Positions 7,301 through 42,700 of a stretch of DNA of 60,000 nucleotides are shown here, in pieces (position 1 is the stretch's first letter; every line of letters starts with the position of its first letter). Origin of the DNA: Malacoraja senta (taxonomy: Eukaryota); the NCBI GenBank assembly GCA_038087875.1, contig CM075989.1:9922001-9982000 (forward strand). The letters run 5' to 3'. The notes beneath the pieces were generated by a model. It searched no databases, was not told the origin of the DNA, and worked only from the letters and a program-made list of their open reading frames with translations. Position numbers and translations under genes: made by a program.

Positions 7301-7762
7301 CCTCTTTATAATTCCCATACTCTGACTCAAGAATGTGTGGATTACTAAAATTGTTTTTTTTTTTCACAATGAGTAATGGGGCAACACAAAAAAGAGTGTT
7401 GAGGATCTAACACATTGGCAATTGAAATAGCATGGCCTGACAAATACAATTCAAGGCCCTTGGGGAGCAGAATAATGTGTTCAAAGTAAATTGCTTGCTG
7501 AGGCAGGATGAGGTGAAATTCTCCATATCAGCACAGACATTGTGGACTGAAGGTCCTGTTCCTCTGTTATATTGTACTATACTATCTGGTAACTTTGACC
7601 TACTGCTGATGGTGAGTCAGTGAGCCAACAATATTCCCAAAAAGTTAGCATGTAAAAATGACATGAACTATGCATTCAAAACATGTTCACAAAGTAACAT
7701 AAAAACATGTAGGATATGATGAAATGCATTGAATGTAATGCAAGAATATAATGGTAACATAC

Positions 7763-8035
7763 CTGCTGACGTCTGTAAACATCATATTCTCCAGGTGGCA
7801 TTGGCACAGATGCACTTGTAAAAATTCTTTTACTTCCAGACTTGGTACTGTACAAATGGGCCACTTCCGGCTCTGGGCCCAGGATTGGTACATTTAGCAT
7901 ATCTGCAACAGCTAAGTCATCCTGGTGAAGCAGTCCACCAACGATGTATGCAGGCTTGCCTTCAATAAGATTTTTTATTCGCTTTATTGCCTGGGGACTG
8001 TATTTCAGATGAGTGGCCAGGCACAAGTGGTGGGT
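7763..8035 (-). CDS. IQCH: IQCH coding exon 13 ([24 protein letters not shown]...[12 protein letters not shown])
   Basis: ttcacag| acceptor, CAG|gtatgt donor, 273 nt. Contains [12 protein letters not shown]. Confidence 0.97.
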
Positions 8036-9489
8036 CTGTGAATAGTGACATTACTCTTGTTAGATTGTATCCTTTTCTACTCCCAAGGCCTAATTTATTA
8101 TGCTGTACACAACAAATACATTATTAATAGTAGACTAGGTTGTGACCAGAGCTATAGTTTAGCAGTTTAAATTGATAAAAGCCACCAGTGTGGAGACTCA
8201 CAACGGTTCCATAATCCTTCACATTTTTAGTGCATCGTAAATGGGTTCCTTGGGAATTCAACTAATTACTACACATCTGTATTTATTTGATCCACGTGGA
8301 ATTACCCTTCTGTCGCATGAAAAGATGCTGGCAGCCTTCAATAACAGTGATTTATCTAAAAGACAGTTGTGGCACAGTTTAAGACTAAAGCTTGGAAAAA
8401 ATCAATACAAATAACTAACAAAAAATGCATCAGCCGGATTGCAGTGACATTAAAAAAACACACACACACACATACATACACCCACCTACTGGTTACCTGT
8501 CTGTAACATATTTCTGTTCATAATAAGTGCTGTGCCATGCACCATTAATTAATCTTTTCAATAAATTCTCCCAAATATTTTGTGAGGAGATTGTGCATAA
8601 TATTTGTTAAAGAGAAAATGGCTGCTTGTTCGATGGTTGCAGGTAAGGGTGCCTGATCTGATGCTACAGGGAGCATTTAATTTCAGTTTAAATTCTAAAT
8701 TCATGTTGTGTTAGCCAAGCAACATTTGATGAATTACAAATTACTCAGCATTCCAGCATCAGTGAGAAGAGAAGGCTTCATAAAAACCTCAGGTAGAGTT
8801 TCCAGCTCTTAATTTGTAATGCGTATCACTGTTTGGCAAAGAGTTTGTGTGAGCACAAGCTGGGGCCCAAACGTGATTCCCTCTCCAGCTCAACAGCTTA
8901 TTAACATTCATTGTCTCAGACCACACATGAAGAACCATCATTTAGAGCAAGACACTGATTGTTCATCAACTGTTACAAAACAGTGAAAATGAACAAAGCA
9001 AATGGGTCAAACCAAGGTCCTGCTGGTCTGCATGGTTTAATACTATAGCCAGCAGTGCCTTTACCTACCCAATCTACAAGGGAAATAAACATAAAATACG
9101 TGCAACAAACTCATTTGTGCTAATTTCGCTGTAATTACATAGTGCTGGTGACATACATTGTGAATTAAAAACGAAGGGACAGACTCTGTGAGCATACCAG
9201 GACAACATCATATTATCAAAGGAAAGGGAGTACCACAGCAAGCCACCAAGAAAGTGGGAGACTCTGCCGCTGACTGTCAAATTATAGGCCATTAACCTCT
9301 GGAGATTGCTGACTGGGGGGGGGCAGAGATTGCAGGTGGAAGTCAGAGGAGGGACAGGGGAAAATAAAACACTGCTCAATACAACTAAGAGCCACAAATA
9401 ATTTTCAGCTGTTCTGACTTTGCACCTAAAACAATAAGTTTTATTTTTTCTTTATCTTCTAGAGTTTCTATAACTTTGTGTTTTTCCCA

Positions 9490-16050: not shown

Positions 16051-17084
16051 CATCTTCCATTTATATAGTGCCTTTGAGATGGCAAAAATTGTCCCAGGGC
16101 TCTTCATAGCAGATTTACCCAACTAAACAAGAACATCGTTGAACCACATAGCAAATGTTCAGTCAAAGATTGACCAAATATTTGGTCAAACAGGTGGATG
16201 TTAAGTAACATTTTAAAGGACGAAGAAAAGGTGGTGAGGCAGAGAGGTTCTAGGATAGAAACCGGATCTTATGCCAGTACATTTAAAATTAAGGGTTTAA
16301 CAAAATACATGCAGTAAGAATTTAGGGTAGTTGATTAAGAGAGAGGAACAGGCAAGACCAGGAACGAGATCTGAAGACAGGAAGAAAGAGATAGTGAGGG
16401 AGCGAAAGCATGGCGGTGATGGTAAAGTCGGGTTTTGCATGAGTTAGGATTCAGCAGCTGTTTAGATAGCCTAAATTACAGAAAGGTGACTGGTCAAAGA
16501 GTTTTAGAATAAGCATGGTTGAGGGTTTCCCCAGCACAGTTGTGCTAAGATGGAATCTGGCGGTGTTATGGCGGCAAAGGAGTTTGATAATGATAAAAAG
16601 AATGAAAAATAGTCAGTCCTAGTGATGACATGTTTATCTAGGAGAGCATGGAAACTGTAGAGAGACAAAGTTTGTGATGTTGGCCACAGGCAATGGCTTT
16701 GATCTTTCCGTTATTTCATTGAAGGAAGTTTGTGATCACTGGATATCAAAGAAGCATTCTCAAAATTTAGAGATAGTGGACAAGTGACGTGGTCATGAAA
16801 TAACACTGAATATTATCAGTCTGCATGTTAAAATTTATCCTATGTTTTCAGATACTGCTGTCAGTTACCAGCAATTGTGTATGGGAAATGAGAGGAGCCC
16901 TCCAAGCATATATTCTTGGAAGTTACCAGAGTTTAACAATACTGGTATGAGAACAGAATTTGATATTGGTGACTACCTGTCTACAAGTAGATTCATGTAA
17001 GAAATGCTTGTCCTTCTTACACAGAAGGGAGTTCTGGCAATGAGCAGAGTATGACACTTGGTCTCATGTTAAATGTTTTTATCA

Positions 17085-19623
17085 CATCTAAAATTCTAAT
17101 TTACCAATGTTCTATAGATTCTGGATCAGTTCCTTTGGATTGGAGGGTAGCTAATGTTATCCCACTTTTCAAGAAAGGAGGGAGAGAGAAAGCAGGGAAT
17201 TATAGACCAGTTAGCCTGACATCGGTGGTGGGGAAAATGCTGGAGTCGATTATCAAAGATGTAATAGCGGCGCATTTGGATAGCAGCAGCAGGATCGGTC
17301 CAAGTCAGCATGGATTTATGAAGGGTTCAAGTTACATTTATTGTCACATGCACCAATTGGTACAGTGAGATTCGAGTAACCATACAGCCGTAAGAATTAA
17401 AAAAAGAACACAATACACGATAGAGTTTAATATAAACATCCCCACACAGCGGAAGGCAATAAAGGCAGGGAAGGAAGGCAATAAAGTTCAGTCATCTTCC
17501 TCATTGTTCACCCGTAGTTGATGCTTGACAAATCATGCTTGACAAATCTTCTGGAATATTTTGAGGATGTAACAAGTAAAATGGACAAGTGAGAGCCAGT
17601 GGATGTAGTGTACCTGGACTTTCAGAAAGCCTTTGATAAGGTCCCACACAGGTGATTAGTGGGCAAATTAAAGTACATGGTATTGGGGTTAGGTTATTGA
17701 CATGGATATAAAATTGGTTAGCAGACAGGAAACAAAGAGTAAGGATTAACGGGTCACTTTCAGAATGGCAGGCAGTGACTAGTGGGGTACTGCAATGCTC
17801 GGTGCTGGGACTGCAGCTATTTACAATATATATTAATGATTTAGATGAAGGAATTAAAAGTAACATTAGCAAATTTGCAGATGACACAAAGCTGGGTGGC
17901 AGTGTGAACTGTGAAGAGGATGGTATGAGGATGCAGAGTAACTTGGACAGGTTGGGTAAGTGGGCAAATGCATAGCAGATGCAGTATAATGTGGATAAAC
18001 GTGAGGTTATTCACTTTGCAGGCAAAAATGGGAAGGCAGATTATTATCTGAATAGTGTCAGGTTAGGAAAAGGGGAAGTACCACGAGACCTGGGTGTCCT
18101 TGTTATCAGTCACTGAAAGTAAGCATACAGGTACAGCAGGCAGTGAAGAAAGCTAATGGCATGTTGGCCTTCATAACGAGAGGAGTTGAGTATAGGAGCA
18201 AAGTGGTCCTTCTGCAGTTGTACAGGGCCCATGTGAGACCACACCTGGAGTATTGTGTGCAGTTTTGGTCTTCTAATTTGAGGAAGGGCATTCTTGCTAT
18301 TGAGGGAGTGCAGCGTAGGTTCACGAGGTTAATTCCCGGGATGGCGGGACTGTCATGATGAAAGAATGGAGCGACTGGGCTTGTATTCACTCGAATTTAG
18401 AAGGATGAGAGGGAATCTTATAGAAACATAAAATTATTAAGGGATTGGACCGGGTAGATGCAGGAATTTTTCCCCCGATGTTGGGGGAGTCCAGAACCAG
18501 CGACCACAGTTTAAGAATAGGGGGGAGGCCATTTAGAACTGAGACTAGACTAAGTGGGACCCGTTGGGTACCTGTCACAGGGGAGGCCTGATCCCGCATG
18601 CAACCCCTTCCCCCAACGCAATATTGCACCACTCACCCATAGCCTCCAACTGCGCAGGTGCGGCTCATTTCCCCTCATCCCCAGCACTCTCTCCACCCTC
18701 CTCTTCACCCTCCCTCTTCTTTCCCCTCTCCTCCTCCCCTCCCCTCACCTCTCACTCCCTCTCCCCTACCCTCACTCCCGCCATAACTCCTCTCCCCTCC
18801 CCATCTATCCCTCTATCCCCACCCCTCAACTCCCCATCTCCCCACTATCCCTCCTCAAGTCCTCCACTCCCCCTCCTGTCCCTCTATTCCCCCTCCTCCC
18901 ACACTCTCCCTCCTCCCTCTTCTTACCTCCTACCCTCCCCAATCCCTCCCTCACCTCTCCCCTACCCTCAGTCACTCCCTCCCTCCCTCCATAACTCCCC
19001 AGGATCTCGAGGTTGCCTTGACCGGAGGCCGCGCTGACCGGAAGCTGCGCCGGGCAGAGGCAGGCGCCGACAGTGACTGACAACGGATGCAGCCAATCAG
19101 TGCAGTGATAGTGCAGGAAGGGGCGTCGCCGTCCCGGCGGTGACTGACAGGAGAGGAGACTAATCTGCGCGTGCGCAGTTTTTAATGATTTTTAAACCTT
19201 AATAACTTAAAATATGCCACCGATCGGAAAAAAACTTGTTGCACTTGTAGCACAGGAGAATGGGGAGTAAGGTGGCGAAAGTAGTGTTATCGTGTACTGT
19301 TTTTATGCAAATGTAAAAACAATGCAAACCGGAAGATAACAAGATGAGAGTTTTAGTTATATAATAGATAGATAGATGAGGAAAAACTTTTTCACACAGA
19401 GAGTGGTGAAATTGTGGAATTCTCTGCCTCAGGAGGCAGTGGAGGCCGATTCACTGGATGCATTCAAAAGAGAGTTAGATAGAGCTCTTAGGGCTAGCGG
19501 AATCAAGGGGTATGGGGAGAAGGCTACTGATTGTGGATGATCAGCCATGATCACATTGAATGGCAGTGCTGGGTCGAAGGGCCGAATGGCCTACTCCTGC
19601 ATCTATTGTCTATGCATCTATGT
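17085..19623 (+). mobile_element. Decayed CR1 LINE (RT domain to 3' end) with two nested insertions
   Basis: DWRVANVIPLFKKG, NYRPVSLTS, KFADDTKL and VRPHLEYCVQFW, with stops and frameshifts. Interrupted at about 17326-17525 and at 18545-19376. Confidence 0.93.
18545..19376 (-). mobile_element. Non-autonomous Helitron
   Basis: On the minus strand it has 5'-TC…CTAG-3' ends and a subterminal hairpin ACCC-AAC-GGGT. Inserted between A and T with no duplication; removing it restores the CR1 sequence gaactgaga|tgaggaaaaac. Confidence 0.88.
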
Positions 19624-21090: not shown

Positions 21091-21742
21091 CTAGGAATCA
21101 AGAAGAGCATTGATCAGTGACAGAAGCTGTAATAGATTCATCAAGTTAAACTTCAGCTGCTCCACTTTAGTCAGTCAGACCAAGCCAGGCATAAATTATA
21201 TTAATTGATTTAATTACATACTTAAAACATCTTCCCCAATTAATTTAATTAGCACTACATGATGCACTAGTAGTATTCCAAGCAGAGAGATTGTAGAGTG
21301 TGCTTTGCTTAATTAATGGAATATGAATTAAAAAGAAACTAAACATAAGTGAAGTAAGCATTAATTAACACACTTGTCTGCAAAAAGTAAATACAGTACT
21401 ATAAAGTACTGAGTGTGCTGTAGTTGGAGAATGAGCATTTTAAACAAATTCAGAATGCTGTTTGTTGACTGCAGGTGGGAAACTTTTAAGATTGATTTTC
21501 CCGACGGTGTAAATGTACGGAGCAAAAGTGGTGAAAAGGCAGAGTCATTCATTCTTTCAGGCAAAAAAAAAAAAAATCTGTGACAGACTTTGCAGCCTCA
21601 ACGGCTGCATCTCTGATGATGGATGAAATATGATTCACAGACAAGAGCATAGAAAGGCAATGTGGGAACAGCTTTACAGGAGCACTCAGGCAGAGATATT
21701 TGCAGAGTGAGGGCTGGCAGAACAGCTGGCAGCTCCACACAC

Positions 21743-22294
21743 CTTGGCCCTGCTGCGAAAATTCTCCAGGTGTCTCTGACGTGACTGCTTTAGGGTCTTC
21801 TTCACCCGGGACATTTGAGCATGCATGAGCCAGGAGATGGCAATAACACCTGCTGCCCACTTCTGGCGAAGAGATGCGAGGTACTTGGTCCTGGCTTGGT
21901 ACTGCCTCCAGATAGCTTGGATTTTTGTGGCTGCTATTACCATGCCATCTGGCCCCTTGTACTGCTGGCCTGGACGCATGACAATGTCTTCCACCAAGTC
22001 TTTATTTTTCAATGCAGGAAGCAGTTGCTCCCAGGTGGGGTGTGAATCAAGATCAAAGATAACTGAAATCTTTGCCAACTTCTCGCCTTCTACTATGGCA
22101 ACTGGCACATCATATTTTCTTAGCTTCATCGCAAGATATTCCAAGAAGGTAGAGATGTGTTTCCAGTATAACTGGTACCGTTGTTTGAAAGCCTGGAAGT
22201 CTGGAGCCGTGTAATCTATTGTGCCGTTGAAAATGGTAACGTAGTAAGCTCGTGGAAATTTCAGAGGTTGATGAAGCGGCACCACTTGAAACTC
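21743..22294 (-). CDS. IQCH: IQCH coding exon 9 with the IQ motif IQAIWRQYQAR (21890-21922)
   Basis: cttacag| acceptor, AAG|gtgtgt donor, 552 nt. Contains APDFxAFK, PGQxYKG, KWAAGVIAISWL and SRQRHLENFRxRAK. Confidence 0.97.
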
Positions 22295-24246
22295 CTGTAA
22301 GAAGAAATGTTGCAATCACTTCCAGATATGAACTCTGTGGTGGAATTATCACCAAAGTAAACTATTACTATCATATACCATAAACCCGTCAAATTTTTCA
22401 TTGATTAATTGAATCTGTTCACCATCACACAGATAGTTTGTAACCAAATCAGCTTAAAAAAAATTAAACAATTTAAAGTAAAGTTGGTTATAGACGAATG
22501 GTGCTAATTTGTGCATTGAACATAAAACAGTGCAACAAAAGAACGGGCCCTTCTGCCCACAATGTCTATGCCAAACAGGATGCCCAGACCATCATTTATC
22601 TATCTGCACATATCACTCCATTCCCTGCATATCCATGTGCATATCCATATGTCTTTTAATGTATCAACTTAAACCCGCCACCCACCAGCACAAACAAGAC
22701 ACCCACCACCCACTCTGTAAAACACTTGTCCCAGATAGCTACTTTTAACCTTTCCCCTCTCACAATCCACAAAAAGACGTGAATGGCAGATCCATGTCCC
22801 CACATCAATTATCTGCTTTTCTGGTCATGTGTCAGGATTTCGAGTTGGACAAAATCGCACTTGAATTATTGTATTACTGCAGATTCCCTTTATGTTTTAA
22901 TTTGTGTTTATTCCCTTTTCTCGGTGAACACAAGTAGGTAATGCCCCTTCTGTAATAAGTACTATTTGTGTCCATCTTGTTCAGGGTGTTGGTGTAGGTT
23001 ACAAAAGAAGAAACATTATTTTACTTGATGGACTTGGGAAAGATTAAGTGATTGCGTGAAGAAAGAGAGACAAGAAGATGACAGATTGAAATGTATGACA
23101 AACAATGTCCTCTAAGTCTCTGGTTTCAAATCTGGGTCAATCTGGGCTGTAAGTTATCTCCCTGTTGTGTGCAAAGAGAAAGCTAGGTAAGATGCTACGA
23201 CGAGATTTAGACTCCAGAGGCTGAGATAAAAATAAAGAACTCAGGAAATGCTTAGAAGATCAGTTAGCATGTATGGAGAGAAAGAAAGAATAAACATTCT
23301 AGACTGATGACCTCTACTTTTTTTCTCTGCACACAATGCCTGACCTGCTGAGTATTTCAAGCATTCTGCTTTTATTCCAGATTTCCAGCATCTGCAGGTT
23401 TTTGAATCCAGAGGTTAAATGATTTACTCTTTTAATGCAATTCTTTAAAGAAACATTAAACTGCCCACCATTGGGAGATCACAATGGCTGCGGTGAGAAA
23501 TTGACACTGATGCAATAAGATTATTTTACAATGGACTGGATTGGAGTGAGCTTTGTTCTATGATCCATGAAGTTGCTGTATCAAAATGCTTTTTTTTAAG
23601 ACCAGTGACAAATTGGATGAAATTCACTATTTACTGATGAATAGAAATTTCCCTTTCTTCCCTGCTGTTAATGACTTGCTAGCAAAATTGCAATTTCAAA
23701 CTTACACATTTCAAAGTCAAACATTGGCATTCATGAGTCATCGGTTAAAAAAGATAACAGACCTTTTCTCATTAATGGATTCTACCAAAGCAAACAATTG
23801 TTCCAATTCCTCATCACTGCAATCTTTCACCTTGATAAGCACAATGAATATCAGCAGTATACTTGCATTTATAAATATATTTGGGAATCGCAAAATTATA
23901 GTGGAAAAGATAAACCATATCCATCATTTGCCACTTTGAATGTGATCCTGATATCAAGATTTTTTTTCATTAAAAATTAATATACAGTGGTTTATCAGAA
24001 AGGCATTAAAATTATACAAAATGACATCATAGAAAATGCAACTTTACCCAAATATACTGGTAGAATAAACCCCCAATAGTTGGTAGCCAAGCAATTGGGC
24101 TTCTCCCTGGATTTCCTCGTTTTGACCCGGGTGCGTGCTATTATTGATTACGTACATCAAGCCTCTGCCAATTGTACTCCCTTCCACTCTAATATCCATC
24201 ACTCTTCCCGCAATACACTTTTCAGTGTATAATTCATATTATATAG

Positions 24247-34458: not shown

Positions 34459-37400
34459 CTGTGGGAAAGAAAGTATGAATTATTAATTTTTCCATTTTAT
34501 GAGATAGTAACTAAACTTTTTAAATGAAATTTCATGTGAATATTACACACTAATCAGCCAAAAATAATTAGCTTATTTGGTAGGTTTTCTATTTGTAATT
34601 GCTACTAATGTGAAAATACACGTAATATTTTTAGTTTCTTCAGTTCAACTCTGGCCATTCCAATAATGTGATATGCACCCCATCAGAATGATAACTATGT
34701 ACATGATAGCTTTATATTAATGAAGCTCAGACATATCCAAGAATCACCCATCTACACTATTGCTCCTTAGCATCTTTCTGTTTACGGTCTACCTGTTTAG
34801 AAGATAATGAGAGAGCCATAATTTATTTTGCTGTTGCTTTCTTCTTGGTACACAGTACAAATAAGGTAAGGAAGGGTGTGTTATTATGAGGTGCAGTTAT
34901 ATTAGCACGCACATGGAAAATGTAATGGTATGAAAATAGAATGATCGGTCTTATCGGTTCAGCTTTCTTTTCATTTAATTGAACGTGGCAACCACTGATT
35001 TAAAATATTTCATTTAACAGGTACAGAAAAATGAACCACTCTGTAATAATCCTTTGCAGTACAAGAGGATATAGTTATCCAGTTCTGTGGGTATGACATT
35101 GGAGATGACAATGCATATTATAAAAAGATTACCAGTAAACATCAAGACACATGTACCTAATTAAACTTTTTGAGTAGAGGCTGTACCCCATCCTCTATTT
35201 CAAGCACTTTTAACACCATACATATCTTAGAAATGTTGCTCAGGATTTTGAATGAAAAGTATTATTTTGAAATATAGTGACTCGTAATATGCAAGAAAAA
35301 TGAGCAATCACAGCAAATCTGTAAAATAAATGATTGCTGCATATGTCTGCCACTTTTTTCTCTGGGGACTGTAACAAAAATTAAACACCGAGTAAGAAAT
35401 AACAATGCTTCAAAATAGAGGACAATACCATAGGGGACAAATGTGGAAACTAGAATTAAAATCAGCAAACAATTACCATTTCATTACTCATTTGCAGGAA
35501 TTGTGACTGGCTTGATGATGTGGCATAAATTGTCGACAGAATATTCTTGATGCAGAACTTTATTGAAATTTCAGGTGCTGTTGTGTGAGAATTTAAAAAA
35601 AAAGCAGAGATAGCATAAAGCGAATGAGAGTGAAAAATAAAAAAAAGAAGATATGTGCTGGCTGATATTGTTGAAAATGTCAGTTCCAGGCAGAAGTCCA
35701 GCTTGCACCAGTCAGAAAGTATGGACCTATCTTATTGTAATTCATAGCTGGACCTCTGTCGTGCCCACAGACAGCTGTAAACCAACAGCCCATAGCATCC
35801 CAATCAGGCACCATGATACCGAAGAATGCTGAAACATACTAGAACACTATTACTGCATCCATGCAGCACGTTTCTTTTGCACCCTGCGTGGCTGAATGAC
35901 AGACTTGTCTTATATTCCAGATGACAAGCGCTGGATAAAAACTTAAACAAATGGTGACCTTTAGAAAGATTAATTTGTTTACCAACAAATGTTCTTCTGT
36001 CATAAAAGATGGGGTGACCTTCACTTCCCAATGCCTGGTTGAGAGTATACTGATTGTAGTCATCTGTTCCTTAGCTCTGTCTTGGCAACTATCTCCAATT
36101 TTTGTTATGACACTGTATTAATTTGTGTATTTCTTGTAAAGATTTTCTGAATGCAATTGTTGAATTACTGTAGTGCAACCAAAATCTAATGGATTAGACA
36201 TATGCCAAGTCTCATAGAAGATAAATAATCTATAAATATTGACTGCAATTTTTTTATTATGAAATACCAAAAATTAAAATGAATAGAGCTAAGATATATT
36301 TATGTACCATGGCTACTGGTAAATAATAATACAAGCTTTTGTATTTGGGCATATATTAATAGTGCTCTTCAGATGGTGATTTTACTTTTCAATACCATTT
36401 TCATCCCTTCATTTTAAATGCATACTAAGACTTTTAGTACAAGCATCTCAAAAAAATCTAAATATATTCTGGAGAGTTAGAGTGAAATTGCTGAATAATG
36501 TCTGCTTATAGACCAATCAAATGTTTTTAATGGAGTTTAAATAGTCAAAGAACAAGGGAAATTGCAGCTCTACAAATCACAACTTTTAAATGTGATAAAA
36601 AGGAACTGCAAACACCAGTTCCTAACCAAAGGTAGACACAAAATCTTTCCCAACCTTTAAAGTTGCTCTTTAAGATAAGGGTGTGTGTGAAAAATAAATA
36701 ATTCTTAAGTGAACAGACTTCAATCATCCTGTTGTTAAATTAGCAAAATTATTTAACCAATTTGGCCACTTCAAACAATTTATCAGTTCTGATCGAACCA
36801 CTCACATTACAATAACTACTGAATAGGATATAAACAGTGCAGAAGTCAAACAAGAGGTAACAATACCAGGATAAAAACTCTCACTGTTCCAGTTTTGTTA
36901 AGCTTCCCTAACAAAGTATTTTTTTACTGCACGTTATTGCTTGCACCAATCTCTGAGGCTGCTTAACAATTGTCTGCCTACTAATGTTATGGTTTGTTTT
37001 ATGCAGAGCACCACTAGCCAAGCTTCAGATAATATTGTACATTGGGGAACATTTTCCTTTCTTTCCTCAAAGAGTGCATAATTATATTTTTGGTGGTGTT
37101 TAATATTCAAAATTGTGCATGTCCTGATTTTACTGTGACTGAATTTACGCAACATGAATTTGCTAATGGGAACAACAAGAAAAAAGTATCAATTACGATA
37201 TACCTGTAATAATCTCATTTCACATTTCTCAAGCAGCTGATGAGCTACTTATCTAGTATAAAAGTTAAAAACCCAGTTAGTCTGGCTGTGCATTAATAAT
37301 ATTCATTCACAAAAAATATTTACAAATGATTACACAAAATATTTCCTAAATTGGGTTTAATAATTTAGACATACACTTCGGTCATGTTGTTTTGCTTACA

Positions 37401-38989
37401 TGACAACTGAAATCTGAATCAGCCTTTTAAATATTGTCAGGCTGCAATAAAGTGAGATCTTGTTTCAGATGAGCACAATTGTGCCTTAACATTGAGATAA
37501 AAGACCAAAGTAGAAACAAATGTCTTTGAAGGTTTTCGTAGTTTTAGTTAGACATTAACATTTTTTAATGAAAAAAAGAAATGGATGACGGTTTCAAATT
37601 CAGGCTGTACAAATTCAGGCTGTTTTACTTTGGAAGTGAAGCATATGCTGTGGAATATTTAAGTTTTAGTACTTACAGACAAAACTTTACAGCTATATAT
37701 CCACAGTGAACACTTTTTCAAAGGATGTAGAGAAAAGGAAGAATTAATAAAATTATTAGGATGCAAAGAAAACATTCCTAAAACTGAAATATTCAGTGGT
37801 ATCAACGGCTGCTGTTATTTTAAGCCACAAGGCACAGCAGGAGGGAACACATTGTACGGATACAGGTACCTACAAATAGTAAGCCTTTCAATGGTATAGT
37901 GACCATAATAGGAAAAGATTTTCCCTGAAGTCACAGCATCAATGTACTCACCAGGTCTTTTCTTCTAACCACAGAAAAAAACCCAAGCGTTGAGAAATTC
38001 TATTGCACTGTAATTGACACCCTTGGTGGTGTATCATTAACTGTTTCAATTTTGGATGAGGTGTTGAACATTTTAGGAACCACAAAAAGTTAATGTTGAA
38101 GCATGCTCAATTGAAAGGGGGGATAGATGGGCTGGTAGCAGGCGTTACACCATGGACTGGCACCTGGAGCCAGTTATGTAACCTCAGTAGATCTCAGTGG
38201 GGGGTGTTCCATTTGTGGCCTTTGTTTATGGGAAGGAAGGGATCAGAAGGAAGATCAGGTGTGGAGCTGGGTTCAGAACAAAAGAAGAGGGTGGAGTGGG
38301 GTGGGGTGGGGATGATGGTACTTTTTGGTAGGGCGAAGTTAGAAGGTGTTTTCGACATAAAATGTATTGGATCCCAAACTCAATTCTACTAATATGCAGT
38401 AAAGAATAATGATGGCCACGACCCACAAATTTGCTTAATCTGCCCCTCAACATTCCACTGTATGAGAAATTTCTGTTTCAGGTATATGAAGAATGGTTTC
38501 AACCAACATGCAACTGATGCAGATATCAGATTAAGAGTACAAGGATGAAGAAGAACCAGTTGGATTTCCAGGGTGCCGTGATTCGAAACAGAAATGGCCC
38601 CAAATGCAACCACTCGAGGTAAAAAAAATTTTTTTTTAAAACATATGGCACTGATAAAAAAAAGACCTGTTTTATACAAGTGAACTTCTAGGCCAAGTTG
38701 CCCGCAGTGTGTGCAGCACACAAAAGATTAAAACAGCTGTAACCATTAACATCTGTTTTCTATCAGTAGTGTAGGGACAGAAACCTGACAATATACAAAA
38801 AGTGACATGAATGTGGAAACACTGGAGACAGCAGCAATCACTGCTGATGGAAATGTTTGTTGAAGACAAATGATGGATGAAATTGATTAGTAAGACTGGA
38901 TGTTACAATCCCTAAGGTTCTTCTGCCAAAGGATGTTACAGTCCAGACCACAACTGACACCCGGTATTCTTGGGGGTGACCACTAGGTG

Positions 38990-39740
38990 ATTTTGCTACC
39001 AATCAGACACATCTTCAGTTGTGTACCTCAACGTCACTGGGTGTTTCGGCCTTTTATCACAAGACACCCTCGGTCGAGGCAGGCCCACCGCAGGGTGACC
39101 AGCCCTTGGTGTGTGTTTTATGGTTAGCCTCTAGATGGTCACGTGGCAGCCCAGACAGCATCTTTTCTCTTCAGCCACAGCCAGTGACTGCTCCATTCTG
39201 CTTTTTTCCTTCCACTTTCCTCTCTACCGCAGACTGTGGCTGGTTGGGCTCTGGACTCGTGTCCGTTGGTGGGACAGTACTTGGTTGAGCTTCGCCTGGG
39301 GTGCTGATACCCTGTGGACTGTGGTGGTTAACCTGCCACTGGGCTTCACTTGACTGATTTGACCTACTTCTTAGAAAGTAATGGTCAATGCGAGGCCCCA
39401 CACCAAGCTCTCCCAGGCACTTTTCCCTGCCCTGGTGGATCTTGAGACCCTTCTCTGATGTTATCTTTTCCCAGCCACAGATGCAGCTTCGTAGTTTATG
39501 TCCTGCCGGGGCTGCCGCTCTGTCAATTGCTGTGCTAGTTGTCTTATTCATAGTCGATTCCTTCCGTAGCAATATAAGGGTGGATCCAAAATCCTAATTA
39601 GCGATGGATCCTGCTGGCATTAGGAGCTAGCCCATGCCAGCCCCGGTGGGGTCTATTCCCTCTGGACAGCAGTCTCTCCAGGCTGTCACTAGGTCTTTCC
39701 CTGGTTGTCAGCTGCCCTTTCGCAGCGGTCACTGGTTTGA
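38990..39740 (-). mobile_element. Internally deleted HERO-type (R2 superfamily) non-LTR retrotransposon
   Basis: N-terminal zinc finger CICG…GLKIHQGREKC is joined near 39202 to a C-terminal peptide in another frame, AEWSSHWLWLKRKDAVWAAT* (stop at 39139-39141). Both UTRs are retained. Boundaries are approximate. Confidence 0.75.
39005..39069 (-). ncRNA. Candidate non-circularly permuted hammerhead ribozyme
   Basis: GGGUGUC^UUGUG…AGGCC-GAAA-CACCC…CACAA-CUGAAGA-UGUGUCU. All core nucleotides are present, with stem III 6 bp, stem I 5 bp and an imperfect stem II. Confidence 0.7.
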
Positions 39741-42700
39741 TTTTTGTTATAGCTGCCCCTTCTCAATCATCAGAAGATGTTGTGGTTTGAGCATTCTTCA
39801 TCAAAGAATACTAATATTCTTGGAACTTCTGTTTGTTCCCTTGGCTTCATATTCATGAATTAGGGATAGATTTGCAATTTTCTAATGATCAGGAAATACC
39901 AGCAGAGAGTACTTCACAGATATTCCCATACATACTTAGTTTCCTCATCAAAAATGTAATACTCAGTTACGAACATCTTTAAAAACAGAATCCATCATCA
40001 AAGAATCCGAGACTTTATGAAGCTCACTGTTTCACATTTAGGTGGGTTTATATCACTGGAGCTTGCCTCAGCAGGGGCAACATATGCAGAAACAAAGTAG
40101 CTGAGAATGTGTGAAGTCAGCAACAATTAAATGTCACCATGAAGAACTACAAAAGTCACTAAAAGCAATGCCTCAGAAAGTTCCAGGACCTTAACAGCAG
40201 AAGGGAAGAGCACTTCTGGAACTGATCAATGTCAGTGATAAAACAAGTAAAGGCAACTCAGCAACTCCTCACCACCCTGACTTATGGAATTATAGGGTCT
40301 CCGAAAAACTGCTACCAATATGAAGCAGTATATATACACAAGTACACAACAATTAACTCGGTAGGTATAGGGACTAAAATTGAGTTGCACATACATTTGG
40401 ATAAATAGCAGATACATAATGTCAATGATGTTCTACCCTTCACAGAAGTTTGCAATCTAGTTTAAATGCTACTGGTGGTAAATACTGAACCATATTTGCA
40501 AATGGTTTGGCAAAACAAGAAATCAATTATATTTCAATTGTAACAAGATTCACATCATAACCTACATATTGGCAACTAAATGGACTCTGGAAGCAGAGAC
40601 TTTGGGGCTTATTTGAACAAAGGTGTTGAATGCCCAATGTCAAATTAGCCAACCAAGTTAGTAGAAAGGTAAACTGGATGGTGGATAATGGGTACCTAAT
40701 ATGTTATATGTTTTAATAACCCTATTCCAGAACTATTCATATTGCAAACCTGACAAACTTTGGCAGGTTAGTGGACATAGCTCAGTTATAGTAAAGCCAA
40801 CAGAACGTAAACACTGTCACATATTTGGGGTGTTCGTCTATTAATGTTTGTTGTGCCAATCTCTGTCTCGATGATAGTTCATTTATACAGTGTTGTTAGT
40901 CTTTTATCTTATGTGCAAGCACTCCCTTCCTTTATACAGTATTATATATCAGGCAGTGATGCTCTGGGACTTAAAACTCTTTACATTAATCACCTTTGTT
41001 AGTATTCTGGTGATGCCCCCTTTCTTTCTGTTGACTAGCACCAATCAGAGCAGCAGTTAAGGATTTATGTTCTATATACATCTTTTTGTAATATACTGTG
41101 TTTGCAATCGCTTCCACTGACCTTTAATAAGTCATTTGTAATCCTCAACATATCCTTAACAAGGCCAATCGCTCATGCCTCCTTGTTAAGTGATAAATCG
41201 ATCAGAGTTAATATGTTAGGGTATTTTACTTCTTTTGACCTTAGCACATACATATTTAAACTATGCCAGCACGTTTTTGCTGAAAACAGCTGGTTGTTGC
41301 AGTTGAGAGGAAAGAAATGCCCTTTTTAATGAGGAAATTTGAAAAAAGGGTAGATGGGGCAATTTCTTCAGTCACTCCAGGGCATTTTTTCTATTGGCAC
41401 AATCCAATACATTTGTACGAAGTTCCTCTGGGTGTATTTTAACATCCACATCAACCCATTTGTATTAAAATGTCAGAGCCTAAGAATCACAAATTAAATA
41501 TCTCATAGAAGTAGCCCCTATCTGACAATATTCACATCCGAATTACATGGAAATACAGTGCAAGAATTTCTCCTCATAATATATTTCTTTTTCAAAGTTC
41601 CAACCTAAAGCAGCCCTAAGAATGCGTATAAAAATAATGCTCATGAAATAAACGCCATATTTCTTCCGCTCTCACCTTAATGTAATTTTTTAGTGGTTGT
41701 GCTTTACACGCTGAGTTATGTAACCTTCAAAACTAAGTTTCAGCCCAATATGACTTTTTGGTGCAGTCGGCCAAATAGAGAAATGTGAAGGTGTAAAGGT
41801 ATTTTAGATTTTCTAATTACTAAAACTCACATACTCTTATTTTACTGTACAATTTTTCATTTATTGAGCTGCATGCATCCAGTTGCCAAAGTTTCATTCA
41901 GTTGCCAAGAATCTGTCAAGTAACAGCCTGAAAACCGAGTGACTTTCATCTGTGTTGCAGATGCCGTCATTAAACTAAAACTTCTCCATGGTTTTGTTGA
42001 AATCAAGCCCAAAAGAATTGGCATATTTTTCTACAATAGAACAGTCAGTGCTTTTATTCCAAAAAAACACTTTCCCCATATATTACAGAATAGAAAAATA
42101 TATTTATCCCCACCCACTAATTCTGTTCAAAGATTCACGTACAATTTTAATGCCGTACACCCCATGTCAGGGTTTTCTCTATAGTTACGCAGGACACAGC
42201 ACACAGAAGAATGTGGCTGCAGAGTTCTGGAAAGGTTAGGAACAGTAGCAGAGAAACAACCAATTTCTATTTTTTGCCATTAGAAAACGTGTCCTACAAT
42301 CTAGACAAAAATGAAAGATTTTTGTGCTTTTCTCAATTTCCCTACAAAACATGCAAAACATGCAATAGTACTGTGAACAATAATAATGAACATATAACCA
42401 GTCCATTCAGTGCTTGATTTGTTTCAAGAACAATATCCTATTTTCCTGCTCTCCCACTTCCCAAAGACACAAGGTTTTGCAGGCCTCTGTAACTTGCCCC
42501 TAGTGTGTAGGGAGTGGATGTGATTGTGGAATAACATAGAACTAGTGTGAATGTGTGATTGATGGTCAGCATGGACTAGGTGGGCAAAAAGGTCTGTTTC
42601 CACGCTGTGTCTCTAAACCAAATATATCCCATGAAACTGTCTTCTCCTTCAAGCACATCCAAATAAGATTTGTCCAATTGAATCTGCACACACTACCCAT

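What the first reader, a model, noticed from the sequence alone, without database searches (positions are those of the whole stretch)
39005..39069. Hammerhead ribozyme with non-circularly permuted (pseudoknotted) strand order in a retrotransposon 3' UTR, sense to the IQCH pre-mRNA
Seen: the minus strand reads GGGUGUC UUGUG auaaa AGGCC GAAA CACCC agugacguugaggua CACAA CUGAAGA UGUGUCU. GGGUGU (39069-39064) pairs with ACACCC (39044-39039) as stem III, with GUC as the cleavage triplet. UUGUG (39062-39058), just after the triplet, pairs perfectly with CACAA (39023-39019), just before CUGAAGA (39018-39012), as stem I. G(U)GUCU after the core can pair with AGGCC before GAAA as a bulged stem II. Established: CUGANGA, GAAA and NUH joined by three stems define the hammerhead core, and types I-III are circular permutations in which, starting from the GUC strand, the CUGANGA strand precedes the GAAA strand. 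Here GAAA comes first, so the fold must be pseudoknotted and standard descriptors would miss it. I recall that natural non-circular hammerhead permutations have been reported, so the class may be known; I cannot tell whether this family or lineage is. Inference: it processes the element's 3' end, and because it lies on the IQCH sense strand it could cut intron 5 co-transcriptionally.
Basis: partly seen in the sequence, partly recalled or inferred. Interest (0 to 1): 0.9.

Follow-up and report, generated by a model that had tools for sequence, protein, structure and literature searches.

The report
Permuted hammerhead ribozyme in LINE tails
A 75-base RNA fold in the tail of a jumping gene holds every part of a hammerhead self-cutting RNA in a rare scrambled order, and related jumping genes from many animals keep the same fold, so it is very probably real, though cutting has not yet been shown.

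Summary
The motif is in the sequence exactly as described (minus strand, 39069-39005). Its block order (cleavage site, GAAA, CUGANGA) is the 'type SGC' non-circular hammerhead permutation of Eckert et al. 2023. It is not a chance match. It is the consensus of an ~840-nt non-autonomous repeat (more than 1000 candidate copies) derived from an R2-superfamily, HERO-like LINE. Two further LINE families in the same genome, and 34 of 79 related LINE loci from metagenomes, carry the same arrangement just after the RT ORF. All 37 hits are on the sense strand, with none antisense and none in shuffles. Stems I and III covary heavily. A kink-turn-like GA/NNN-GA bend joins it to stem III, and all 7 of its pairs covary. 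Stem II is weak and irregular. No Rfam model detects the motif. No cleavage data could be obtained, because the runs were available only as contigs. The function is inferred: processing of read-through or tandem LINE transcripts. This is a new variant of a known kind, apparently unreported in LINEs.

The parts
38882..39741 (-). Copy of an ~840-nt non-autonomous LINE derivative (family A). It lacks the first ~12 nt of the full form and carries a 23-nt insertion at 38946-38924.
   Evidence: 1333 candidate copies (40 scored), 93-96% identical. Termini were read from 30 loci.
39171..39551 (-). Short ORF, a remnant of the LINE protein's N-terminus with a C2HC zinc knuckle.
   Evidence: 52% identity to residues 58-173 of the 1181-aa RT protein P0002. 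No Pfam hit of its own.
39073..39079 (-). Stem IIIb, 5' strand (CCUCGAC).
   Evidence: pairs with 39032-39026. 7 of 7 pairs show changes on both sides across 23 sequences.
39070..39072 (-). Kink-turn-like non-bulged strand (C, then GA directly 5' of stem IIIa).
   Evidence: signature present in 22 of 33 sequences.
39064..39069 (-). Stem IIIa, 5' strand (GGGUGU), ending in U16.1.
39063..39063 (-). C17. The predicted cleavage is 3' of it, between 39063 and 39062.
   Evidence: Hammerhead rule (Eckert 2023 text). Position 17 is A16 U13 C8 G0 when left free.
39058..39062 (-). Stem I, 5' strand (UUGUG).
   Evidence: covaries with 39023-39019.
39053..39057 (-). Linker from stem I to stem II (AUAAA).
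   Evidence: A-rich in most relatives.
39048..39052 (-). Stem II, 11.x strand (AGGCC, with C11.1 at 39048).
   Evidence: weak support.
39044..39047 (-). GAAA (G12 to A15.1).
   Evidence: invariant in 37 of 37 hits when each position is freed.
39039..39043 (-). Stem IIIa, 3' strand (CACCC).
39033..39038 (-). Kink-turn-like bulged strand (AGU bulge, GA, C).
   Evidence: the GA is invariant in 23 of 23 rows of A3.
39026..39032 (-). Stem IIIb, 3' strand (GUUGAGG).
39019..39023 (-). Stem I, 3' strand (CACAA).
39012..39018 (-). CUGAAGA (C3 to A9).
   Evidence: C3 37 of 38, the other positions 37 of 37, N7 free.
39005..39011 (-). Spacer U (39011), then stem II 10.x strand G[U]GUCU.
   Evidence: the extra U between A9 and G10.1 also occurs in published SGC ribozymes. 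Pairing is supported only within the window's subgroup.

Best explanation
Window 39079-39005 (minus strand) encodes a hammerhead ribozyme of the non-circularly permuted type-SGC order. It is a conserved 3'-UTR module of an R2-superfamily (HERO-like) LINE clade and of its non-autonomous derivatives. Three points are shown. The RNA has the full hammerhead core. Stems I, IIIa and IIIb are kept by compensatory change. The motif always lies on the sense strand, 29-213 nt after the RT ORF. Four points are inferred. The RNA folds as a double pseudoknot in which a kink-turn-like bend in stem III turns helix IIIb back, so that its 3' strand can run straight into the 3' strand of stem I. It self-cleaves after C39063, leaving a 2',3'-cyclic phosphate on the ORF-bearing part and a 5'-OH on a fragment of about 160-180 nt made of the ribozyme and the 3' tail. 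Its use to the element is to cut read-through and head-to-tail (tandem or partial-tandem) transcripts into unit-length RNAs. In that role it defines the 5' end of the downstream unit, as the HDV-like ribozyme does for R2 and hammerheads do for Penelope-like elements and retrozymes. The window's copy still matches the family consensus in all blocks, so it could cut the IQCH-like pre-mRNA in which it lies in sense.
For: Topology and core match the published SGC pattern: III(4-7), UH, I(4-7), 0-8 nt, II, CGAAA, III, 0-15 nt, I, CUGAUGA[U]G. Several validated-family SGC sequences read CUGAAGAUG, as here. Within the same genome, the pattern CGAAACACC-N12-32-CUGAUGAUG gives 380+384 matches, against 0/1 for the reversed control. 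Stem I reads UUGUG/CACAA in family A, UAGUG/CACUA in family B and UGAUG/CAUCA in family C. H17 is C, A, C and N7 is A, U, U. In 79 related LINE loci from metagenomes (31-82% protein identity) there are 37 hits in 34 loci, all on the sense strand, 0 antisense, and 0 in 20 shuffles. By my count per locus, 26 of 38 loci with at least 200 nt after the ORF carry a strict motif, and 3 more carry it with one stem mismatch. Pair counts give stem III 95.3% paired with 5 of 6 pairs changed on both sides, and stem I 93.0% with 6 of 6. The covariation score is 0.630, against 0.199 in shuffles (0 of 500) and 0.10-0.13 when slid. In the leave-one-out test every core base is invariant, N7 is U19 C10 G4 A4, and N17 is never G. 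Stem IIIb was not part of the descriptor. It shows 7 of 7 covarying pairs, and cognate duplexes average -10.7 against -7.05 +/- 0.37 kcal/mol when permuted (0 of 5000). The GA/NNN-GA signature occurs in 22 of 33 sequences. At least 14 of 30 family-A loci have an abutting upstream partial copy.
Against: There is no cleavage evidence. All 24 runs offered were contigs, so no read ends could be seen. Stem II is weak. In the window's register only 52.3% of cells pair. Cognate stem II duplex energies are no better than permuted ones (-3.03 against -2.99; 882 of 2000). Relatives need one to two unpaired bases next to A9 or G12. [quoted passage not shown] Lineages with dead cores have spread: the dominant contig of organism A has C3>U and G12>A, and L076/L077 read UUGACAA. 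Upstream partial copies do not start at the cut site (1 of 27 within 2 nt). A cut would sever the ORF from the 3' tail that an R2-type RT would need. The first 4 bp of stems I and III were forced by my descriptor.
Confidence: 0.75

Rival explanations
1. The fold is a conserved pseudoknot that serves as the reverse transcriptase's recognition site in the 3' UTR, as in R2, and does not cleave. On this view the hammerhead-like core is kept for binding or folding.
For: Stem II is irregular and statistically unsupported. [quoted passage not shown] A cut would separate the ORF from the 3' tail. R2 proteins are reported to bind a pseudoknotted 3' UTR RNA (abstract of PMC12222951 seen in the listing).
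Against: All 11 catalytic-core bases plus U16.1 are invariant, while N7 is free and position 17 avoids only G. That is the specific signature of hammerhead catalysis, not of a generic protein site.
Confidence: 0.17
2. The ribozyme was or is functional for the LINE family, but this copy and most genomic copies are inert passengers. Any effect on the host intron is nil because the RNA misfolds, for example into the block-C hairpin.
For: 16 of 37 family-A copies in the loci examined no longer pass the descriptor. The MFE fold pairs ACACA with UGUGU around CUGAAGA. The z-score of the local fold is only -1.28.
Against: The window copy is identical to the family consensus in all blocks. Only 39072 differs, and it is an unpaired kink position.
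Confidence: 0.06
3. Chance assembly of short motifs in a repeat.
For: Short motifs do assemble by chance: 4 loose-descriptor hits arose in 300 shuffled windows.
Against: The results exclude this.
Confidence: 0.01

Closest known systems
Type-SGC hammerhead ribozymes (HRIMA-1 motif and variants; Eckert, Friedrich, Weinberg & Weinberg, NAR 2023, PMC10085705)
   Same: The block order is the same (S, G, C). The core is the same. Stem I is 5-7 bp. A short A/U-rich linker runs from stem I straight into stem II. C11.1-GAAA is present, and there is an extra base (often U) between A9 and G10.1, down to the string CUGAAGAUG.
   Different: The published ones come from metatranscriptome or metagenome contigs tied to hairpin ribozymes and presumed circular RNA replicons. 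Here the host is a metazoan LINE 3' UTR. The published helix that closes block C and joins stems I and II is absent. In its place stem III is extended by a kink-turn-like bend and helix IIIb. Stem II is less regular. Four typical 11-strand strings of the LINE type are absent from their supplement as held.
Hammerheads of Penelope-like elements and retrozymes (Cervera & de la Pena 2014, 2016, 2020; Lunse et al. 2017; cited, papers not read)
   Same: These are hammerheads carried by retroelements that insert as partial tandems. The ribozyme lies in the repeated terminal part, and the proposed role is processing of multimeric transcripts.
   Different: Those are classical type I or III hammerheads, often minimal and dimeric, in elements with a GIY-YIG endonuclease or without a protein. 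This one is type SGC in an RT plus restriction-like-endonuclease LINE.
HDV-like ribozymes of R2 and other LINEs (Eickbush & Eickbush 2010; Ruminski et al. 2011; cited, not read)
   Same: A self-cleaving ribozyme in an R2-superfamily element that depends on co-transcription. It defines the 5' end and possibly helps translation.
   Different: It belongs to a different ribozyme class and sits at the 5' junction, not in the 3' UTR.
Kink-turn (recalled from the literature of the Lilley and Steitz groups; no paper read here)
   Same: A canonical helix, a 3-nt bulge, then tandem G.A/A.G formed by GA on both strands, then a second helix.
   Different: The resemblance is inferred from sequence only. 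11 of 33 relatives use another kind of bulge. I know of no report of a kink-turn inside a hammerhead stem (recall only; not searched).

Membership tests
Hammerhead ribozyme | Conserved core C3 U4 G5 A6 N7 G8 A9, G12 A13 A14, and A15.1-U16.1, with H (not G) at position 17 | tested here: met
   Window. In relatives every position is invariant when freed (C3 37 of 38, the others 37 of 37), N7 is any base, and N17 is A16 U13 C8 G0.
Hammerhead ribozyme | Stems I and III flank the core and are kept by covariation | tested here: met
   stem I has 6 of 6 and stem III 4-5 of 6 pairs with changes on both sides.
Hammerhead ribozyme | Stem II closes the A9/G12 side with a 10.1-11.1 pair | tested here: inconclusive
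   G10.1-C11.1 is present in 18 of 33 sequences in the window's register. The helix is 52.3% paired. There is no energy signal. Changes are compatible within the window's 8-sequence subgroup.
Hammerhead ribozyme | Site-specific self-cleavage 3' of position 17 | not testable with these tools
   Only contigs were available.
Type-SGC permutation | Order III5'-UH-I5', II-CGAAA-III3', I3'-CUGANGA-II, with a short I-to-II linker | tested here: met
   The window fits the published RNAMotif pattern except that N7 is fixed to U in that pattern and stem II is strict there.
Type-SGC permutation | A helix flanking block C that joins stems I and II (required for cleavage in the published examples) | tested here: not met
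   The sequence 5' of block C is used by stem IIIb. No conserved partner was seen 3' of stem II.
R2-superfamily (restriction-like endonuclease) LINE | A single ORF with an N-terminal zinc finger, RT, and a C-terminal CCHC plus PD..(D/E)xK-like endonuclease | tested here: met
   P0002 has RVT_1 at E 3.4e-23. The zinc knuckle and the C-terminal motifs were read from the translation. The endonuclease was recognised by eye, not by a model.
HERO clade | RT phylogeny groups with HERO references (HERO-1_SP, HERO-1_BF, HEROTn, named in PMC7650587) | not tested
   No HERO reference sequence was at hand. Named relatives are teleost, lamprey, amphioxus and scallop proteins, which fits the clade's known hosts.
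Kink-turn | C helix, 3-nt bulge, tandem sheared G.A pairs, NC helix | tested here: inconclusive
   The sequence signature occurs in 22 of 33 sequences, and the GA is invariant in 23 of 23 rows of A3. There is no structural test.

The most novel reading that the evidence does not exclude
A whole clade of metazoan R2-like (HERO-like) LINEs, found in amphioxus and molluscs as well as vertebrates, depends on a kink-turn-assisted, doubly pseudoknotted type-SGC hammerhead. The ribozyme cuts tandem or read-through transcripts into unit-length RNAs with 5'-OH and 2',3'-cyclic-phosphate ends. These RNAs are ligated into circles and copied by rolling-circle reverse transcription, which would explain the ubiquitous partial-tandem insertions. 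If so, thousands of potentially active, so far invisible ribozymes lie in vertebrate introns.
Probability: 0.25. Interest if true: 0.92.

Novelty: new variant of a known kind. Interest (0 to 1): 0.85.

Why it matters
Non-circularly permuted hammerheads were known only from environmental RNA of unknown hosts. If this motif cleaves, it places them in animal genomes at thousands of copies, inside a LINE clade not previously linked to hammerheads. It would add a kink-turn solution to the topological problem of the permuted fold. It would also give a tractable system, with named hosts, an RT protein and non-autonomous partners, for asking what such ribozymes do in retrotransposition. Finally, it shows that covariance-model surveys (Rfam) miss an abundant ribozyme class, and that sense-oriented copies may cut host pre-mRNAs.

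Tried and rejected
1. RNA evidence. The look-up of sequencing runs offered 24 runs, all as Logan contigs. Laying 4 of them showed presence in other organisms and variant letters but no molecule ends, so it is no evidence for or against cleavage.
2. Stem II. The single-register pair count and the duplex-energy permutation test gave no general support. At least three registers would be needed.
3. If cleaved RNAs were copied to their 5' end, upstream partial copies should start at unit position 680. Of 27 independent starts one is at 678. Clusters lie at 533-547 and at 712-733, the latter at block C. The simple run-off model is therefore rejected, and the cluster is unexplained.
4. Rfam at E up to 10 on 36000-42000 and at E up to 1 on six motif-bearing loci found no ribozyme family.
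5. The search of earlier findings by place, sequence and words returned nothing.
6. Tandem repetition cannot turn S-G-C into a classical type, because its circular permutations are GCS and CSG. A classical fold using a G block from the next copy would need a stem II loop of about 800 nt, so it was rejected.
7. Penelope-like element: rejected, because the autonomous relative has an R2-like ORF and its only Pfam hit was RVT_1 (no GIY-YIG match).
8. Literature searches for a prior report found none. One search found no mention of a LINE-borne permuted hammerhead in PMC13725137. Paywalled papers, Repbase and Dfam could not be searched.
Smaller stretches were fetched instead.

Full report
**Observation.** The blocks are GGGUGU-C (39069-63), UUGUG, AUAAA, AGGCC, GAAA (39047-44), CACCC, 15 nt, CACAA, CUGAAGA (39018-12), U and GUGUCU (to 39005). 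In the terms of Eckert et al. 2023 (PMC10085705; I read sections 7, 13, 15 and 18 and parts of the supplement) the order is block S, block G, block C. That is their 'type SGC' hammerhead, a class validated in vitro for RNAs from metatranscriptomes.

Their RNAMotif pattern is III(4-7), UH, I(4-7), 0-8 nt, II(2-6), CGAAA, III, 0-15 nt, I, CUGAUGA[U]G, II. The window fits it in every length and in the odd extra U between A9 and G10.1. It misses only because N7 is A here, although their own alignments hold CUGAAGAUG, and because stem II needs a bulged U.

A descriptor of this kind finds one hit in the window counting both strands, and 4 hits in 300 shuffled windows. That is rare, but not rare enough on its own for a scan of many windows.

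**What the motif sits in.** The motif lies in an ~840-nt repeat (window 39741-38882, minus strand). The repeat has 1333 candidate copies in the 1.94-Gb genome. The 40 scored copies are 93-96% identical, and the motif is their consensus. In the loci examined, 21 of 37 copies that cover the motif still pass the descriptor, and the window's copy is one of them.

The repeat has a short ORF (39551-39171) with no Pfam hit. That ORF is 52% identical to the N-terminus of a 1181-aa protein encoded by a ~3.95-kb element of the same genome. The larger protein has RVT_1, an N-terminal C2HC knuckle, and a C-terminal CCHC plus PD..ExK-like region read by eye. It is therefore an R2-superfamily LINE.

Its named relatives are teleost, lamprey, amphioxus and scallop proteins. 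This fits the HERO clade, whose reference elements are listed in PMC7650587 (passages seen), but I could not test clade membership. The window's repeat is thus a non-autonomous, internally deleted relative, and the motif lies in its 3' UTR. In the autonomous element the motif begins about 90 nt after the stop codon and about 190 nt before the 3' end.

IQCH-like exons (PF24923 at 7676-8050; an IQ motif at 21686-22315) lie on the minus strand. The motif is therefore sense to that gene. The intron number was not checked.

**Comparative evidence within the genome.** A loose end in a laid contig hinted at a divergent relative with CUGAUGA. A pattern search of the genome for CGAAACACC-N12-32-CUGAUGAUG then gave 380+384 matches, against 0/1 for the reversed control. 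These matches belong to two further LINE families. In the 30 loci fetched (20 of family B, 10 of family C) the three families compare as follows:

| Family | Stem I | H17 | N7 |
|---|---|---|---|
| A (window) | UUGUG/CACAA | C | A |
| B | UAGUG/CACUA | A | U |
| C | UGAUG/CAUCA | C | U |

The stem I differences are compensatory changes at two pairs. The core, the spacer U, G10.1 and C11.1 stay fixed.

**Comparative evidence across distant relatives.** With an alignment of 15 relatives of the protein (A1) I fetched 79 related loci from metagenome contigs, at 31-82% identity. My descriptor required stems I and III of at least 4 bp including G.U, UH, GAAA, CUGANGA, and spacers of at most 16 and 25 nt.

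- It gave 37 hits in 34 loci, all on the sense strand of the ORF, none on the antisense strand, and none in 20 dinucleotide shuffles of all loci.
- By my count per locus from the table, 26 of 38 loci with at least 200 nt after the ORF have a strict motif 29-213 nt downstream.
- Of the 12 without it, three have it with one stem mismatch (L088, L097, L115). One is cut by the contig end (L100). Two have a decayed core, UUGACAA (L076, L077). One is ambiguous (L120). Five have none adjacent.

**Structure counts.** On the 33-sequence alignment A2, one search gave these results:

| Helix | Cells paired | Pairs changed on both sides |
|---|---|---|
| Stem III | 95.3% | 5 of 6 |
| Stem I | 93.0% | 6 of 6 |
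| Stem II (window's register) | 52.3% | 3 of 4 |

The covariation score is 0.630, against 0.199 +/- 0.017 in 500 shuffles (none reach it) and 0.10-0.13 with partners slid. The first four pairs of stems I and III were forced by the descriptor. The outer pairs were not, and they still pair, for example 31 of 32 at columns 4-34 and 26 of 28 at columns 14-59.

In a leave-one-out scan I freed each core position in turn. C3 is C in 37 of 38 hits, and every other core base and U16.1 is kept in 37 of 37. N7 is U19 C10 G4 A4. Position 17 is A16 U13 C8 and never G. These are exactly the freedoms of a catalytic hammerhead.

**A fourth helix and a bend.** In all 33 sequences the 6-8 nt just upstream of stem III pair with it (window CCUCGAC 39079-73 with GUUGAGG 39032-26). 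Cognate duplexes average -10.7 kcal/mol, against -7.05 +/- 0.37 for permuted partners (0 of 5000). On alignment A3 (23 sequences) all 7 pairs show changes on both sides and 81.3% of cells pair, despite some register slips. This helix played no part in selecting the sequences.

Between stems IIIa and IIIb the 5' strand reads N-GA and the 3' strand reads NNN-GA-N in 22 of 33 sequences. The 3'-strand GA is invariant in 23 of 23 rows of A3. This is the sequence signature of a kink-turn; that rule is recalled, not tested here. The other 11 sequences mostly have a 4-7-nt bulge on the 5' strand instead.

The 3' strand of IIIb is 0-3 nt from the 3' strand of stem I. A sharp bend in stem III is therefore what would let the permuted chain close. 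The nested part of the fold (IIIb plus IIIa) is also the MFE structure (z = -1.28, unremarkable).

**Weak points.**
- Stem II is short and irregular. In the window's subgroup of 8 sequences it is G-C, a bulged or mismatched base, G-C, U.G or U-A, and C-G or U.G, with compatible changes. Other relatives need other registers, with one or two unpaired bases beside A9 or G12, and an energy permutation test shows nothing.
- Dead-core lineages have spread.
- No cleavage could be observed, because all runs were contigs.
- No Rfam family matches.

**Function (inferred).** Family-A insertions often carry an abutting, 5'-truncated upstream copy of the 3' part. At least 14 of 30 loci do, and 5 more have remnants of at most 55 nt. 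The autonomous family occurs as head-to-tail pairs about 3955 nt apart. About half of the upstream pieces (14 of 27 starts) include the whole ribozyme.

I therefore favour a role in cutting read-through or tandem transcripts, which would give the downstream unit a defined 5'-OH end. This is analogous to the HDV-like ribozyme of R2 and to the hammerheads of Penelope-like elements and retrozymes (known from the literature cited; those papers were not read). Recent work links such cuts to cap-independent translation (abstract and passages of PMC13725137).

Against a simple version of this role, upstream pieces do not begin at the cut site (1 of 27). In a single copy, moreover, the cut would remove the 158-190-nt tail. 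A role as an RT-binding pseudoknot that does not cleave remains possible (about 0.17).

**Novelty.** 'Type-SGC' occurs in only one paper of the library. Searches combining hammerhead with HERO, non-LTR, UTR and pseudoknot found no report of it in LINEs. A November 2026 introduction from a ribozyme laboratory lists no such case. Four typical LINE-type strings are absent from Eckert's supplement as held. Paywalled papers, Repbase and Dfam could not be searched.

I rate this a new variant of a known kind. The core and the permutation are the same. The host is new (a metazoan LINE clade), and so is the peripheral architecture.

Noticed in passing
window 39741-39600 (minus); L073 5860-5690 (minus); L076 and L097 after their 3' ends: The 5' UTR of these LINEs is strongly conserved between families and distant relatives. 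It holds repeated CCAGUGAC..GCUG.GAAAG.GCAGCUGAC-like units that look like stacked hairpins. Rfam gives nothing. It may be a second structured RNA, for 5' processing or translation.
   Followed up: partly
window 39024-39007 (minus): The MFE fold pairs ACACA with UGUGU around CUGAAGA. This hairpin would sequester the 3' strand of stem I and the stem II strand, so it may be an inactive alternative conformer. Families B and C can form a similar one.
   Followed up: no
window 39018 and 39047; coded run X1: In another organism the dominant high-depth contig of the related repeat has C3>U and G12>A together. G12 lies in a CpG, and several copies in this genome also read CCAAAAC. A dead-core subfamily has therefore amplified.
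   Followed up: partly
family A loci L001-L030 and L154-L168: The start points of the upstream partial copies cluster at unit positions 533-547 (6 of 27) and 712-733 (9 of 27). The second cluster coincides with block C at the 3' edge of the ribozyme fold, as if reverse transcription often stalled or switched there.
   Followed up: partly
window 38946-38924 (minus): The window's copy has a private 23-nt insertion in the 3' tail that partly repeats the following tail sequence (TGTAACATCC). It could serve as a tag for locus-specific RNA mapping.
   Followed up: no
window 7676-8050 and 21686-22315 (minus); 16991-17368 (plus): There are IQCH-like ATP-grasp and IQ-motif exons on the minus strand, and an unrelated RVT_1 fragment on the plus strand.
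   Followed up: partly
L148 (motif at 25 and 3758), L142, L093: Several ~4-kb metagenome contigs carry the motif at both ends or twice, about one unit apart. The relatives are therefore also tandem, or were assembled as terminally redundant units.
   Followed up: no
L079 3790-3800: The stem IIIb/kink region of this relative happens to contain a second CUGACGA string. Naive motif scans can pick the wrong core there.
   Followed up: no
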